This document shows, piece by piece, positions 40,444 to 46,057 of a DNA stretch of 64,000 bases. The notes under the pieces were generated by a model, which saw only the letters and a program-made list of their open reading frames with translations, ran no database searches and was not told the DNA's origin. A program made the translations under genes and the position numbers. The first letter of the stretch is position 1; every line of letters begins with the position of its first letter. The stretch lies in assembly GCF_988242995.1 (NCBI RefSeq), contig NZ_OZ547043.1; one strand, written 5' to 3'.

Positions 40444-40469
40444 AAAAAGCGCCTGCGGGCGCTTTTTTT
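40444..40469 (+). terminator. Intrinsic terminator of serS
   Basis: AAAAAGCGCC-TGCG-GGCGC followed by TTTTTTT; the IS200-like element starts at the end of the T-tract. Confidence 0.8.
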
Positions 40470-41180
40470 GTGCACAGAAAACCCCCAGCTAGGCTGGGGG
40501 TTCCGGAAAGCTTTCAGCTTTGAGCCAGTTATTAAAACCCCTTTTGATTTGTTAAAACACCTTGCGGTCTGGCAACTGCAAGTGTCAAACAAGAAATCAA
40601 AAGGGGGTCCCAATGGGGGACGAAAAGAGCTTAGCGCACACCCGCTGGAACTGTAAATATCACATAGTTTTTGCGCCGAAATACCGAAGACTGGCGTTTT
40701 ACGGAGAGAAGCGTAGGGCGATAGGCAGTATTTTGAGAAAGCTGTGTGAGTGGAAAAGCGTACGGATTCTGGAAGCAGAGTGCTGCGCAGATCATATCCA
40801 TATGCTTGTGGAAATCCCACCCAAAATGAGCGTATCCGGCTTTATGGGATATCTGAAAGGGAAAAGCAGTCTGATGCTTTACGAGCAGTTTGGGGATTTG
40901 AAATTCAAATACAGAAACAGGGAGTTCTGGTGCCGAGGGTACTATGTCGATACGGTGGGTAAGAACACGGCGAAGATACGTGACTACATAAAGCACCAGC
41001 TTGAAGAGGATAAAATGGGGGAGCAGTTATCGATTCCATATCCGGGCAGCCCGTTTACGGGCCGTAAGTAACGAAGTTGAATGCAAATGTCAGATCGTAT
41101 GCGCCTGTTAGGGCGCGGCTGGTAACAGAGCCTTACAGGCGCATTTGAAAAACCTCCGGCTATGCCGGAGGATATTTATT
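40467..41180 (+). mobile_element. IS200-family insertion sequence, copy A (~714 bp)
   Basis: Sequence shared with copy B at a constant offset of 4877 bp; left-end hairpin CCCCCAGC-TAG-GCTGGGGG, single tnpA ORF, right-end hairpin CCTCCGGC-TAT-GCCGGAGG; flanks differ immediately outside. Confidence 0.9.
40613..41071 (+). CDS. tnpA: IS200 Y1 (HuH) transposase TnpA
   Basis: 152-aa ORF from ATG at 40613: MGDEKSLAHTRWNCKYHIVFAPKYRR...; HuH motif HIHMLVEIP and catalytic Tyr in RGYYVDTVG; the longer 169-aa ORF 40562.. in the track is an upstream extension. Confidence 0.92.
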   Translation: MGDEKSLAHTRWNCKYHIVFAPKYRRLAFYGEKRRAIGSILRKLCEWKSVRILEAECCADHIHMLVEIPPKMSVSGFMGYLKGKSSLMLYEQFGDLKFKYRNREFWCRGYYVDTVGKNTAKIRDYIKHQLEEDKMGEQLSIPYPGSPFTGRK

Positions 41181-41188
41181 GTCTCCCT

Positions 41189-41202
41189 TTGATACCGAAC
41201 AA
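41189..41202 (+). promoter_or_regulatory. FNR box of the dmsA promoter
   Basis: TTGATACCGAACAA, near-consensus TTGAT-N4-ATCAA half-sites, ~170 bp upstream of the dmsA start codon; dmsABC is a classic FNR-activated operon. Confidence 0.65.
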
Positions 41203-41372
41203 TAATTACTCCTCACTTACACGTAATACTACTTTCGAGTGAAAATCTACCTATCTCTTTGATTTTCAAATTATTCGATGTATACAAGCCTATATAGCGA
41301 CCTGCTATAGAAATAATTACACAATACGGTTTGTTACTGGAATCAATCGTGAGCAAGCTTGAGTGAGCCATT

Positions 41373-44445: not shown

Positions 44446-44446
44446 G

Positions 44447-45310
44447 ATGGGAAGTGGATGGCATGAATGGCCGCTGATGATCTTCACGGTCTTCGGGCAA
44501 TGTGTAGCGGGTGGTTTTATCGTTCTGGCTTTGGCGCTGCTCAAAGGCGACCTGCGAGCAGAAGCCCAGCAGCGTGTTATTGCCTGCATGTTTGGTTTAT
44601 GGGTGCTGATGGGCATTGGCTTTATCGCCTCTATGCTTCATCTTGGTTCACCGATGCGCGCCTTTAACTCGCTCAACCGGGTAGGGGCTTCAGCACTCAG
44701 TAACGAAATCGCCAGCGGTTCGATCTTTTTTGCTGTTGGTGGCATCGGCTGGTTACTGGCAATGCTGAAAAAGCTGTCACCGGCATTGCGTACGCTGTGG
44801 CTGGTGGTGACGATGGTTCTTGGCGTCATCTTTGTCTGGATGATGGTGCGTGTCTATAACAGCATCGATACCGTACCCACCTGGTACAGCATCTGGACAC
44901 CGATGGGCTTCTTCCTGACGATGTTCATGGGCGGCCCGTTACTGGGTTACCTGTTGCTGAGTCTGGCTGGCGTCGATGGCTGGGCGATGCGTCTGCTGCC
45001 AGCCATTTCTGTACTGGCACTGGTAGTGAGTGGCGTGATGTCAGTGATGCAGGGCGCAGAGCTGGCGACTATTCATAGTTCTGTGCAGCAGGCCGCAGCG
45101 CTGGTGCCGGACTATGGTGCGCTGATGTCCTGGCGGATCGTGCTTTTGGCTGTTGCCCTGTGTTTGTGGATTGCACCACAGCTAAAAGGTTATCAGCCTG
45201 CGGTTCCGCTACTATCCGTCTCATTCATTTTGCTTCTGGCAGGAGAATTAATCGGCCGCGGCGTATTCTATGGTTTGCATATGACCGTGGGGATGGCCGT
45301 CGCAAGCTAA
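44447..45310 (+). CDS. dmsC: DMSO reductase membrane anchor subunit DmsC
   Basis: ORF 44384..45310 trimmed to the ATG overlapping the dmsB stop (TGAGATG): MGSGWHEWPLMIFTVFGQC...; polytopic; 287 aa. Confidence 0.9.
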   Translation: MGSGWHEWPLMIFTVFGQCVAGGFIVLALALLKGDLRAEAQQRVIACMFGLWVLMGIGFIASMLHLGSPMRAFNSLNRVGASALSNEIASGSIFFAVGGIGWLLAMLKKLSPALRTLWLVVTMVLGVIFVWMMVRVYNSIDTVPTWYSIWTPMGFFLTMFMGGPLLGYLLLSLAGVDGWAMRLLPAISVLALVVSGVMSVMQGAELATIHSSVQQAAALVPDYGALMSWRIVLLAVALCLWIAPQLKGYQPAVPLLSVSFILLLAGELIGRGVFYGLHMTVGMAVAS

Positions 45311-45318
45311 TCAGTAAC

Positions 45319-45346
45319 AACCGGGGTTTCGACCCCGGTTCTCTTT
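45319..45346 (+). terminator. Intrinsic terminator of dmsC
   Basis: CCGGGG-TTTCGA-CCCCGG followed by TTCTCTTT; IS200-like copy B begins within or at the end of the T-rich tail. Confidence 0.75.
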
Positions 45347-46057
45347 GTGCACAGAAAACCCCCAGCTAGGCTGGGGGTTCCGGAAAGCTTTCAGCTTTGA
45401 GCCAGTTATTAAAACCCCTTTTGATTTGTTAAAACACCTTGCGGTCTGGCAACTGCAAGTGTCAAACAAGAAATCAAAAGGGGGTCCCAATGGGGGACGA
45501 AAAGAGCTTAGCGCACACCCGCTGGAACTGTAAATATCACATAGTTTTTGCGCCGAAATACCGAAGACTGGCGTTTTACGGAGAGAAGCGTAGGGCGATA
45601 GGCAGTATTTTGAGAAAGCTGTGTGAGTGGAAAAGCGTACGGATTCTGGAAGCAGAGTGCTGCGCAGATCATATCCATATGCTTGTGGAAATCCCACCCA
45701 AAATGAGCGTATCCGGCTTTATGGGATATCTGAAAGGGAAAAGCAGTCTGATGCTTTACGAGCAGTTTGGGGATTTGAAATTCAAATACAGAAACAGGGA
45801 GTTCTGGTGCCGAGGGTACTATGTCGATACGGTGGGTAAGAACACGGCGAAGATACGTGACTACATAAAGCACCAGCTTGAAGAGGATAAAATGGGGGAG
45901 CAGTTATCGATTCCATATCCGGGCAGCCCGTTTACGGGCCGTAAGTAACGAAGTTGAATGCAAATGTCAGATCGTATGCGCCTGTTAGGGCGCGGCTGGT
46001 AACAGAGCCTTACAGGCGCATTTGAAAAACCTCCGGCTATGCCGGAGGATATTTATT
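45344..46057 (+). mobile_element. IS200-family insertion sequence, copy B (~714 bp), same orientation as copy A
   Basis: Apparently identical to copy A over its full length (all overlapping six-frame ORFs translate identically); right end abuts the ycaC stop codon. Confidence 0.9.
45490..45948 (+). CDS. tnpA: IS200 Y1 (HuH) transposase TnpA
   Basis: 152-aa ORF identical to the copy A transposase. Confidence 0.92.
   Translation: MGDEKSLAHTRWNCKYHIVFAPKYRRLAFYGEKRRAIGSILRKLCEWKSVRILEAECCADHIHMLVEIPPKMSVSGFMGYLKGKSSLMLYEQFGDLKFKYRNREFWCRGYYVDTVGKNTAKIRDYIKHQLEEDKMGEQLSIPYPGSPFTGRK

What the first reader, a model, noticed from the sequence alone, without database searches (positions are those of the whole stretch)
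40467..46057. Two apparently identical direct-repeat IS200 copies bracket the complete dmsABC operon
Copies A (40467-41180) and B (45344-46057) share sequence at a constant 4877-bp offset, are in the same orientation, and enclose the dmsA promoter plus dmsABC with nothing else. This resembles a composite-transposon layout, although IS200 (Y1/HuH, single-strand transposition) is not known to mobilise intervening DNA that way. More realistically the 714-bp direct repeats are substrates for RecA-dependent deletion or tandem amplification of the anaerobic DMSO reductase operon. The apparent identity of the copies suggests recent transposition or gene conversion. IS200 is absent from K-12.
Basis: seen in the sequence. 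Interest (0 to 1): 0.6.

Follow-up and report, generated by a model that had tools for sequence, protein, structure and literature searches.

The report
Two fresh IS200 insertions behind terminators
Two identical copies of the small mobile element IS200 flank the E. coli DMSO reductase operon because each landed just behind a transcription terminator, which is an ordinary, very recent strain polymorphism rather than a new kind of transposon.

Summary
Window 40467-41180 and 45344-46057 are 714 bp, 100% identical and in direct orientation. They enclose only the dmsA promoter region and dmsABC.

The element itself is 711 bp (40470-41180 and 45347-46057). The other 3 bp are T's of the two target sites. 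It is a complete IS200 with a 152-aa Y1/HUH TnpA, end hairpins and the STnc490 region.

The operon has not moved. Near-identical relatives carry no IS at either site (CP057479.1) or only the dmsC|ycaC copy (NLZY01000006.1). Gut-metagenome contigs show the double state. Both insertions are therefore recent and independent, and the order B then A is only suggested.

Both copies sit immediately 3' of an intrinsic terminator, of serS and of dmsC. So do 90 of 100 distinct left-end junctions of IS200 relatives from many phyla, against 2-27% of control sites. Two insertions behind consecutive same-strand terminators must enclose exactly one transcription unit, in direct orientation.

Among 5426 complete E. 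coli genomes, site A is occupied in 2 (by a different variant, IS200C) and site B in 18. None has both. None shows a deletion or duplication junction, and no plasmid carries the unit.

Recombination between the copies, or composite mobilisation, remains possible but was not observed.

The parts
40444..40469 (+). serS intrinsic terminator, the target of IS-A. It consists of A5, stem GCGCC/GGGCGC and T7, and the insertion point follows the T tract.
   Evidence: Folds at -13.6 kcal/mol and appears as a hairpin in the DNA fold. Empty sites in L003, L004 and L153 read ...GCGGGCGCTTTTTTT|GTCTCCC.
40470..41180 (+). IS200 copy A, 711 bp (boundary ambiguous by 2 T). The left-end terminator hairpin is at 40480-40502 and the right-end hairpin at 41153-41171.
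   Evidence: Exact identity with copy B. The insertion is +711 bp relative to empty sites. Rfam STnc490 matches 40480-40603 at 146 bits. Hairpins are shown.
40613..41071 (+). tnpA of copy A, 152 aa, a Y1/HUH transposase with HIH at 'DHIHMLV' and tyrosines at 'RGYYVD'.
   Evidence: NCBIfam transpos_IS200, E = 2.2e-42, 144 bits against a cut-off of 55. Pfam Y1_Tnp on identical products. Translation.
41140..41282 (-). STnc130-like sRNA region in the serS-dmsA spacer. Its usual terminator is replaced by the IS200 right-end hairpin plus T5.
   Evidence: Rfam RF02084, 100.9 bits against a gathering score of 55, with alignment.
41189..41202 (+). FNR-box-like sequence TTGATaccgAACAA of the dmsA promoter, 8 nt to the right of IS-A and intact.
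   Evidence: Read directly from the sequence. It matches the TTGAT-N4-ATCAA consensus at 9 of 10 positions. Assignment to the dmsA P1 promoter rests on my recollection of the literature and was not checked here.
41373..45310 (+). dmsABC operon (dmsA 41373-43817, dmsB 43828-44445, dmsC 44447-45310), in its native position.
   Evidence: ORFs. Collinear with annotated dmsABC in L001 and L003. One mismatch to L153 across 41175-45346.
45319..45346 (+). dmsC intrinsic terminator, the target of IS-B. The stem is AACCGGGGT/ACCCCGGTT followed by CTCTTT.
   Evidence: Found by the terminator scan and folds at -15.6 kcal/mol. Empty sites in L001, L004 and L153 read ...CCCCGGTTCTCTTTTATTTCTGC.
45347..46057 (+). 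IS200 copy B, 711 bp. tnpA is at 45490-45948 and the right-end hairpin at 46030-46048. The right end abuts the ycaC stop codon (46057-46059, minus strand).
   Evidence: STnc490 matches 45357-45480. The ycaC ORF is 46057-46683 on the minus strand.

Best explanation
These are two separate, very recent insertions of one active IS200 lineage into an otherwise ordinary E. coli chromosome. Each landed immediately 3' of the T tract of an intrinsic terminator. IS-A follows the serS terminator and IS-B follows the dmsABC terminator.

serS and dmsABC are consecutive transcription units on the same strand. Two such hits therefore lie in direct orientation and enclose exactly one complete transcription unit, from promoter to terminator. 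The 'bracket' is a geometric by-product of target choice and does not show that the operon was mobilised.

Inferred mechanism, by analogy with IS608: TnpA excises the top strand as a single-stranded circle and pastes it into single-stranded DNA 3' of a short target. The target is read by base pairing with a guide sequence just 5' of the left-end hairpin. In IS200 that candidate guide is (G)AAAA. The right-end hairpin is also preceded by GAAAAA and followed by ATATTTATT. This fits a T-tract target, and a terminator (hairpin plus T tract) resembles the element's own right end.

The insertions look neutral. The FNR box and the rest of the dmsA promoter are intact. The right-end hairpin followed by T5 on the opposite strand supplies a substitute terminator for ycaC and for the STnc130-like RNA.

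Shown here: identity of the copies, element boundaries, the polymorphic states in relatives, and the association with terminators. Inferred: the guide pairing, a role for the hairpin in targeting as opposed to survival of neutral insertions, and neutrality for expression.
For: 1. Identity and anatomy.

2. Native synteny and recent gain. L153 (CP057479.1) is 100% identical to the window over 5810 bp and 4473 bp of flank and has 1 mismatch across dms, yet both sites are empty. L154 is equally identical, has site A empty, and its contig ends 75 nt into IS-B. L032 is a 5017-bp gut-metagenome contig collinear with window 40468-45484. It shows IS-A, dmsABC and the left end of IS-B, with 2 SNPs in IS-A.

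3. Both sites are hit repeatedly. Site A carries IS200C, which differs from the window's IS at 29-30 of 711 positions, at the same nucleotide in 2 of 5426 genomes. Site B is occupied in 18 genomes with a flank haplotype about 1% divergent.

4. Every other site of this same TnpA (ytfL, ccmH, a ybiJ-like gene, purL, recA, rnb) lies right after a hairpin plus T tract and reads TT|GTGCAC.

5. Generality. 90 of 100 distinct left-end junctions of IS200 relatives are terminator-like. They include Y. pestis IS1541, Vibrio, Dickeya, Oxalobacter, Mailhella, Ruminococcus, Bacillota, Enterococcus and others. Controls gave 2.2% for random windows, 9.6% for windows ending in TT, 18.8% for T-rich windows, and 27% for matching pentamers in E. 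coli non-coding DNA.

6. Tandem IS1541 dimers have the second copy right after the first copy's right-end hairpin plus ATATTTATT.

7. Literature. Guide and cleavage-site logic of IS608 (PMC3201880). IS200 paralogues are identical within a genome (PMC5435999). [quoted passage not shown]
Against: - Targeting and selection cannot be separated from sequence alone. Insertions just after terminators are the least harmful, so survival bias could produce much of the enrichment.
- The terminator criterion I used is loose. About 20% of T-rich sites inside coding DNA also pass it.
- The 100 junctions were collected with a pattern that required the IS200 left-end hairpin. This also fixes two A's of the proposed guide.
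- Left-end boundaries of the more divergent relatives were extrapolated from BLAST and may be off by 1-2 nt.
- The lagging-strand rule known for this family is not clearly visible. GC skew on the IS top strand is positive here but mixed at other sites (4 positive, 3 negative).
- The order 'B first, then A' rests on one B-only relative and on no A-only relative being found.
- No read data were available to exclude an assembly error in the window itself.
Confidence: 0.85

Rival explanations
1. The segment is, or was, a composite IS200 transposon. LE of copy A and RE of copy B act as the ends of a 5.6-kb element that carried dmsABC to this place.
For: LE(A) and RE(B) lie on the same strand in the correct order. 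Peel-and-paste transposition needs only one LE and one RE, and IS608 derivatives with foreign cargo do transpose (PMC5027513).
Against: dmsABC is at its universal serS/ycaC position. Relatives with identical flanks have each site empty independently. Each IS has its own terminator target. No plasmid or other locus carries the unit, with 0 places covering at least 80%. Excision of single-strand elements is reported to depend on element length (PMC5371416, citing the IS608 work), so 5.6 kb should be inefficient.
Confidence: 0.03
2. One copy is ancient at its site and became identical to the other through gene conversion, not through recent transposition.
For: Site A is occupied by a 4%-divergent IS200C in two other E. 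coli genomes at the same nucleotide. An old insertion overwritten by conversion is therefore conceivable.
Against: The nearest relatives (100% identical flanks) have site A empty, and one has both sites empty. Copies at unrelated loci are equally near-identical, as is usual for IS200 (PMC5435999).
Confidence: 0.05
3. One of the two copies is an assembly artefact, with a repeat placed wrongly.
For: Identical multi-copy IS elements do cause mis-joins. L026 shows a purL-IS-narP junction in a draft assembly that is probably chimeric. No reads were available for the window.
Against: Three junctions are seen in independent assemblies. RE-A|dmsA appears in L011-L013 and L032. dmsC|LE-B appears in L032, L154 and L003. 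RE-B|ycaC appears in 18 genomes. serS|LE-A is seen with IS200C in L001.
Confidence: 0.04
4. The pair was retained by selection because it changes dmsABC dosage or expression, for example through amplification of the operon or insulation of it.
For: Direct repeats of 711 bp spaced 4.9 kb apart are a classic substrate for tandem amplification. The double state occurs in several gut metagenomes.
Against: No duplication junction was found. The promoter elements are untouched. The same IS lineage shows the same placement at unrelated operons, so no dms-specific explanation is needed.
Confidence: 0.05

Closest known systems
IS200 of Salmonella/E. coli (IS200 group of the IS200/IS605 family, including IS200C and Yersinia IS1541)
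   Same: About 0.7 kb with a single 152-aa Y1/HUH tnpA and no tnpB. There are no terminal inverted repeats. A left-end bidirectional terminator hairpin, the STnc490/art200 region and a right-end hairpin are all present. Copies within a genome are near-identical.
   Different: Nothing essential differs. This variant differs from annotated IS200C at 29-30 of 711 positions and is 87% identical to IS1541.
IS608 / ISDra2 (the mechanistic paradigm of the family)
   Same: Subterminal hairpins, with a 4-nt stretch 5' of each hairpin foot that could act as a guide. The right cleavage site lies about 9 nt 3' of the right-end hairpin, compared with 10 nt in IS608. Insertion is 3' of a short target with no duplication.
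   Different: The target here is a T tract that follows a hairpin, not TTAC or TTGAT. There is no tnpB. The distance from the left-end hairpin foot to the element's end is about 10 nt, compared with 19 nt. None of the biochemistry has been tested for IS200.
Bacterial group IIC introns, which home just downstream of intrinsic terminators or attC hairpins (from my own knowledge)
   Same: A mobile element found immediately 3' of terminator stem-loops, in one orientation, at sites that are neutral for the host.
   Different: A retroelement with an entirely different mechanism (ribozyme plus reverse transcriptase). The resemblance is one of niche only.
Composite transposons such as Tn10 or Tn5
   Same: Two IS copies flank a block of genes.
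   Different: Those use DDE elements and the unit sits at non-native sites with a target duplication at its outer ends. Here the cargo is in its native place and each IS arrived on its own.

Membership tests
IS200 (IS200/IS605 family, IS200 group) | Encodes a Y1 HUH transposase of about 150 aa as its only ORF | tested here: met
   NCBIfam NF033573 transpos_IS200, E = 2.2e-42, 144 bits against a cut-off of 55. Pfam PF01797 on identical products. The HIH motif and the YY of 'RGYYVD' are visible in the translation. No second long ORF lies on the tnpA strand.
IS200 (IS200/IS605 family, IS200 group) | About 700-710 bp, with no terminal inverted repeats and no target-site duplication | tested here: met
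   The insertion is 711 bp relative to empty sites. No inverted repeats were found. Only an ambiguous TT is shared with the T-rich target, so a 2-bp duplication cannot be formally excluded.
IS200 (IS200/IS605 family, IS200 group) | Subterminal hairpins at both ends, with the left-end hairpin acting as a bidirectional terminator, plus the 5'UTR/art200 (STnc490) region | tested here: met
   DNA folds have z-scores of -5.6 and -5.7 (left-end regions with their targets) and -3.2 (right end). The terminator scan finds the right-end hairpin on both strands. Rfam STnc490 scores 146 bits in both copies. Terminator activity itself is taken from the literature (PMC4513863).
IS200 (IS200/IS605 family, IS200 group) | Mobility, shown by presence/absence polymorphism with precise boundaries | tested here: met
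   Empty and filled sites occur in relatives with 100% identical flanks, and the same element occurs at at least 8 other loci.
IS200 (IS200/IS605 family, IS200 group) | Single-strand peel-and-paste chemistry with guide/cleavage-site pairing | not testable with these tools
   Only the anatomy is compatible. GAAAA lies 5' of both hairpins, the target is T-rich and the right tip is T-rich. The model comes from IS608 (PMC3201880).
Composite transposon | Two IS copies flank the cargo genes | tested here: met
Composite transposon | The IS-cargo-IS unit occurs as a block at a non-native location, or is present or absent as a block | tested here: not met
   Synteny is native. The two IS copies are polymorphic independently of each other. 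No plasmid carries the unit, and none of 5426 complete genomes has it.

The most novel reading that the evidence does not exclude
IS200-group elements may actively recognise intrinsic terminators as their target. On this reading the T tract pairs with the conserved (G)AAAA guide 5' of the left-end hairpin, and the terminator hairpin mimics the element's own right end. Terminators would then be the family's dedicated safe harbour across phyla.

A corollary follows. Any two copies behind consecutive same-strand terminators form an LE...RE pair that TnpA could excise as one single-stranded circle carrying a whole operon. For this locus that circle is 5.6 kb, and its excision would restore a clean serS|ycaC joint.
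Probability: 0.4. Interest if true: 0.55.

Novelty: new member of a known kind. Interest (0 to 1): 0.3.

Why it matters
For this locus the practical consequences are modest. The strain carries 711-bp direct repeats that could delete or amplify a non-essential anaerobic respiration operon. Identical IS copies like these also break or mis-join short-read assemblies.

The wider point is that the layout has a simple rule behind it. IS200 and its relatives sit just after intrinsic terminators in about 90% of junctions sampled from many phyla. They therefore frame whole transcription units, do little harm, and stay transcriptionally insulated.

A 2025-26 preprint reports this association statistically. 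The nucleotide-level picture seen here is new detail: TT at the junction, a conserved GAAAA next to the hairpin, a right end that resembles a terminator, and tandem dimers. Together these suggest a testable targeting mechanism and a natural 'safe-harbour' logic that could be of use for single-strand insertion tools.

Tried and rejected
- A deletion junction (serS flank + IS + ycaC flank) and a duplication junction (dmsC flank + IS + dmsA flank) were searched in 5426 complete E. coli genomes. Neither gave a place covering at least 80% of the query. This is uninformative about rates, because no genome in that set has both copies.
- A 24-kb query meant to rank relatives gave a misleading 100% coverage. 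Other nearby IS200 copies were joined into the same 'place'.
- The exact DmsC protein was too common to pick out the lineage. The exact DmsA protein worked.
- I first read the metagenome contig lengths (5003 = 4877+126 and 5017 = 4877+140) as a possible circular or amplified IS-dms unit. I rejected this for L032. It has no terminal overlap, and its IS-A differs from IS-B at a SNP, so it is a linear unitig running from IS-A into IS-B. L011 could not be retrieved in full.
I filtered the hits by BLAST to the IS.
- The lagging-strand orientation rule was checked by GC skew. It holds at this locus but is mixed elsewhere, so I did not rely on it.
- The key older papers were not in the library: Odaert 1998 on IS1541 sites, Beuzon & Casadesus 1997, Ton-Hoang 2010 and Bearson 2002. 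Whether terminator-adjacent insertion was already noted there could not be checked.
- The source organism of the window was not identified by name. The best match among RefSeq complete E. coli genomes is about 99%, whereas GenBank CP057479.1 matches the flanks at 100%.
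Full report
**1. The observation**

At a fixed offset of 4877 bp, window 40467-41180 and 45344-46057 are identical at all 714 positions. Identity falls to chance level just outside (one search found the same family). A BLAST of the repeat against the 64-kb window finds only these two copies, both on the + strand.

The genes around them are rarA, serS (39131-40423), dmsA (41373-43817), dmsB (43828-44445), dmsC (44447-45310), ycaC (46057-46683, minus strand) and ycaD. 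The interval between the copies holds only the 192-bp dmsA upstream region, dmsABC and the dmsC terminator.

**2. What the repeat is**

Each copy has one 152-aa ORF (40613-41071 and 45490-45948). It matches NCBIfam transpos_IS200 at E = 2.2e-42 and shows the HIH motif and the tyrosine pair. Rfam finds the IS200 5'UTR/antisense RNA family STnc490 in both copies. Hairpins occur near both ends.

Alignment with genomes whose sites are empty shows that the inserted DNA is 711 bp, GTGCAC...ATTTATT, at 40470-41180 and 45347-46057. A 2-nt TT ambiguity remains. The other three identical bases are T's of the two targets. This is a complete, standard IS200.

**3. Has the operon moved?**

It has not. The order serS-dmsABC-ycaC is the same in every annotated E. 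coli region I fetched.

The most informative relatives came from looking up the window's exact DmsA protein.
- GenBank CP057479.1 (L153) is 100% identical to the window over 5810 bp to the left and 4473 bp to the right, has one mismatch in dms, and has neither IS.
- NLZY01000006.1 (L154) is equally identical, has site A empty, and its contig stops 75 nt into an IS200 at site B.
- A 5017-bp gut-metagenome contig (L032) is collinear with window 40468-45484. It shows IS-A, dmsABC and the start of IS-B. Two SNPs in IS-A distinguish its two copies.
- Two further metagenome contigs start at the IS left end and run into dmsA.

The states 'none', 'B only' and 'A+B' therefore coexist in one near-clonal background. 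Both insertions are recent and separate events. The order B then A is suggested but not proven.

Gene conversion is not needed to explain the identity. Copies encoding the same TnpA at other loci differ by 0-2 nt in most cases, and by 7 at recA. IS200 paralogues are reported to be identical within a genome (PMC5435999).

**4. Population survey**

Among 5426 complete RefSeq E. coli genomes the results were as follows.
- Site A (serS|dmsA) is occupied in two genomes, S1-CAM-04-C and PCN033. The element sits at exactly the same nucleotide but is IS200C, which differs from the window's IS at 29-30 of 711 positions, while the flanks differ by about 1.2%.
- Site B (dmsC|ycaC) is occupied in 18 genomes. 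Their IS differs by 3 nt and their flanks belong to a different haplotype.
- No genome has both sites occupied.
- No genome has a serS-IS-ycaC deletion junction or a dmsC-IS-dmsA duplication junction.
- No plasmid carries the IS-dms-IS unit. The dmsABC hits in the plasmid collection are chromosomal DNA, with ycaC alongside.

Both sites are thus used repeatedly. There is no trace of the interval moving, being lost or being amplified.

**5. Why these two places**

Both insertion points lie directly after an intrinsic terminator: GCGCCtgcGGGCGC followed by T7 for serS, and AACCGGGGTttcgACCCCGGTT followed by CTCTTT for dmsC.

Every other locus that carries this same TnpA shows the same arrangement. 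These lie downstream of ytfL, ccmH, a ybiJ-like gene, purL, recA and rnb. In each the IS is co-oriented with the upstream gene, a G+C-rich hairpin and T-rich tail come just before it, and the junction reads TT|GTGCAC.

To test generality I scanned one genome per species for the IS200 left-end hairpin and kept the hits that BLAST confirmed as IS200 relatives. Together with the E. coli loci and the window, this gave 100 distinct left junctions. They come from E. coli, Yersinia pestis (IS1541), Vibrio, Edwardsiella, Dickeya, Brenneria, Tatumella, Oxalobacter, Mailhella/Desulfovibrio, Ruminococcus, other Bacillota, Enterococcus and others.

| Set of sites | Terminator-like by one fixed criterion |
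|---|---|
| IS200-relative left junctions | 90 of 100 |
| Random windows | 2.2% |
| Windows ending in TT | 9.6% |
| T-rich windows | 18.8% |
| Matching pentamers in E. coli non-coding DNA | 27% |

. Positions -7 to -1 are 65-93% T.

In Y. pestis, tandem IS1541 dimers have the second copy placed right after the first copy's right-end hairpin plus ATATTTATT. The scanner scores that sequence as terminator-like.

[quoted passage not shown] It interprets this as limiting transposase expression (bioRxiv 10.1101/2025.07.22.666184). I found no accessible paper that states a targeting mechanism. The older IS1541 and IS200 site papers were not available.

**6. Consequence for the layout**

serS and dmsABC are adjacent transcription units on the same strand. 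An IS that lands after the terminator of each must end up as a direct repeat. The pair must also enclose one whole unit, from the first base after the upstream terminator to the operon's own terminator. This explains 'promoter plus dmsABC with nothing else' without any composite-transposon history.

**7. Likely mechanism (inferred)**

In IS608, TnpA binds subterminal hairpins. The cleavage or target tetranucleotide is read by pairing with four bases just 5' of the hairpin foot. The right cleavage site lies 10 nt 3' of the right hairpin (PMC3201880).

In this IS200 both hairpins are preceded by GAAAA(A), the target is a T tract, and the right tip, ATATTTATT, ends 9 nt after the hairpin. Pairing of A-rich guides with T-rich cleavage sites would account for insertion 3' of T tracts.

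Why the hairpin is also enriched is open. It may aid recognition by mimicking the right end or by exposing single-stranded DNA. Alternatively it may simply mark the places where insertions are harmless and so survive. Sequence data cannot separate these two possibilities.

The family's known preference for the lagging-strand template (PMC5027513) fits this locus, where GC skew is positive on the IS top strand. It is not evident in the few other sites examined.

**8. Effects on neighbouring genes (inferred)**

- IS-A ends 8 nt before a TTGATaccgAACAA FNR-type box, and the rest of the dmsA upstream region is intact. Assignment of this box to dmsA P1 is from memory.
- The STnc130-like RNA on the minus strand loses the serS terminator. 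It is aligned by Rfam with the IS right-end hairpin plus T5 in its place.
- The ycaC stop codon abuts IS-B, and the same reverse-strand hairpin plus T5 now follows it.
- IS200's left-end hairpin is a documented bidirectional terminator (PMC4513863).

The insertions therefore look neutral.

**9. What could still happen**

Direct repeats of 711 bp spaced 4.9 kb apart are ordinary substrates for homologous deletion or tandem duplication. LE(A) and RE(B) also form a formally valid pair of ends for single-strand excision of a 5588-nt circle. Excision of such single-strand substrates is reported to depend on length (PMC5371416). Neither outcome was observed, and the available genome sets lack the double-IS parent needed to see them.

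**10. Verdict**

It is a recent, strain-level pair of IS200 insertions, that is, a new member of a known kind. The composite-transposon reading is rejected as an origin. The recent-transposition reading is supported. The recombination potential is plausible but undocumented. The most interesting by-product is the very strong, cross-phylum association of IS200-group left ends with intrinsic terminators. It explains the layout and deserves an experimental test.

Noticed in passing
window 41140-41282 (-): The Rfam STnc130 sRNA family matches the serS-dmsA spacer. Its normal 3' terminator (the serS bidirectional terminator) is separated from it by IS-A, and the IS200 right-end hairpin plus T5 is aligned in that position instead.
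   Followed up: partly
window 46030-46059: The ycaC stop codon (46057-46059, minus strand) directly abuts or overlaps the last T of IS-B. On the minus strand the IS right-end hairpin plus TTTTT now follows ycaC and could act as a substitute terminator.
   Followed up: partly
L002 1-7023 (E. coli PCN033) and L020 1-6900 (CP122643.1): A P2-like prophage (integrase, Cox, replication endonuclease) is integrated at the serS terminator. In PCN033 IS200C sits immediately to the right of the terminator copy at the prophage end. The same hairpin therefore appears to serve as both a phage attachment site and an IS200 target.
   Followed up: partly
L026 9775-10565 (GCA_005384585.1, draft contig BFLQ01000020.1): A purL-IS200-narP junction joins regions that lie about 400 kb apart in the K-12 gene order. 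It is probably an assembly chimera across identical IS copies, and otherwise a very large deletion.
   Followed up: no
L150 1984-3406 and L152 11928-13350 (Yersinia pestis NCTC5923): These are head-to-tail tandem dimers of IS1541. The second copy is inserted right after the first copy's right-end hairpin plus ATATTTATT.
   Followed up: partly
It is unclear how a de Bruijn unitig passed the IS right end without branching if both copies are identical. Possible causes are low coverage, pruning or a loop. The full contig was not retrieved.
   Followed up: partly
window 25022-25049 (+) and 25512-25596 (-): There is a single orphan CRISPR repeat (Rfam CRISPR-DR4) next to a tRNA gene. In other E. coli genomes an IS200C sits close to the corresponding tRNA-Ser/infA region (L004 153-611), but not in this window.
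   Followed up: no
window 35141-35373: Degenerate internal tandem repeats (about 90% identical) lie inside ftsK. They appeared as secondary BLAST hits.
   Followed up: no
L025 19347-19805 (-): A second IS200 copy lies in the opposite orientation about 9 kb from the first in GCA_964045655.1. It too is preceded by a hairpin plus TTTTATT. Inverted pairs like this would be substrates for inversion.
   Followed up: no
window 50528-56021 compared with L015: CP057479.1 is 100% identical to the window up to about 50528. All 31 mismatches of the 9966-bp right-hand alignment (window 46056-56021) lie beyond that point, in the roughly 5.5 kb of the pflA/pflB/focA region. This suggests a recombination patch in an otherwise clonal background.
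   Followed up: no
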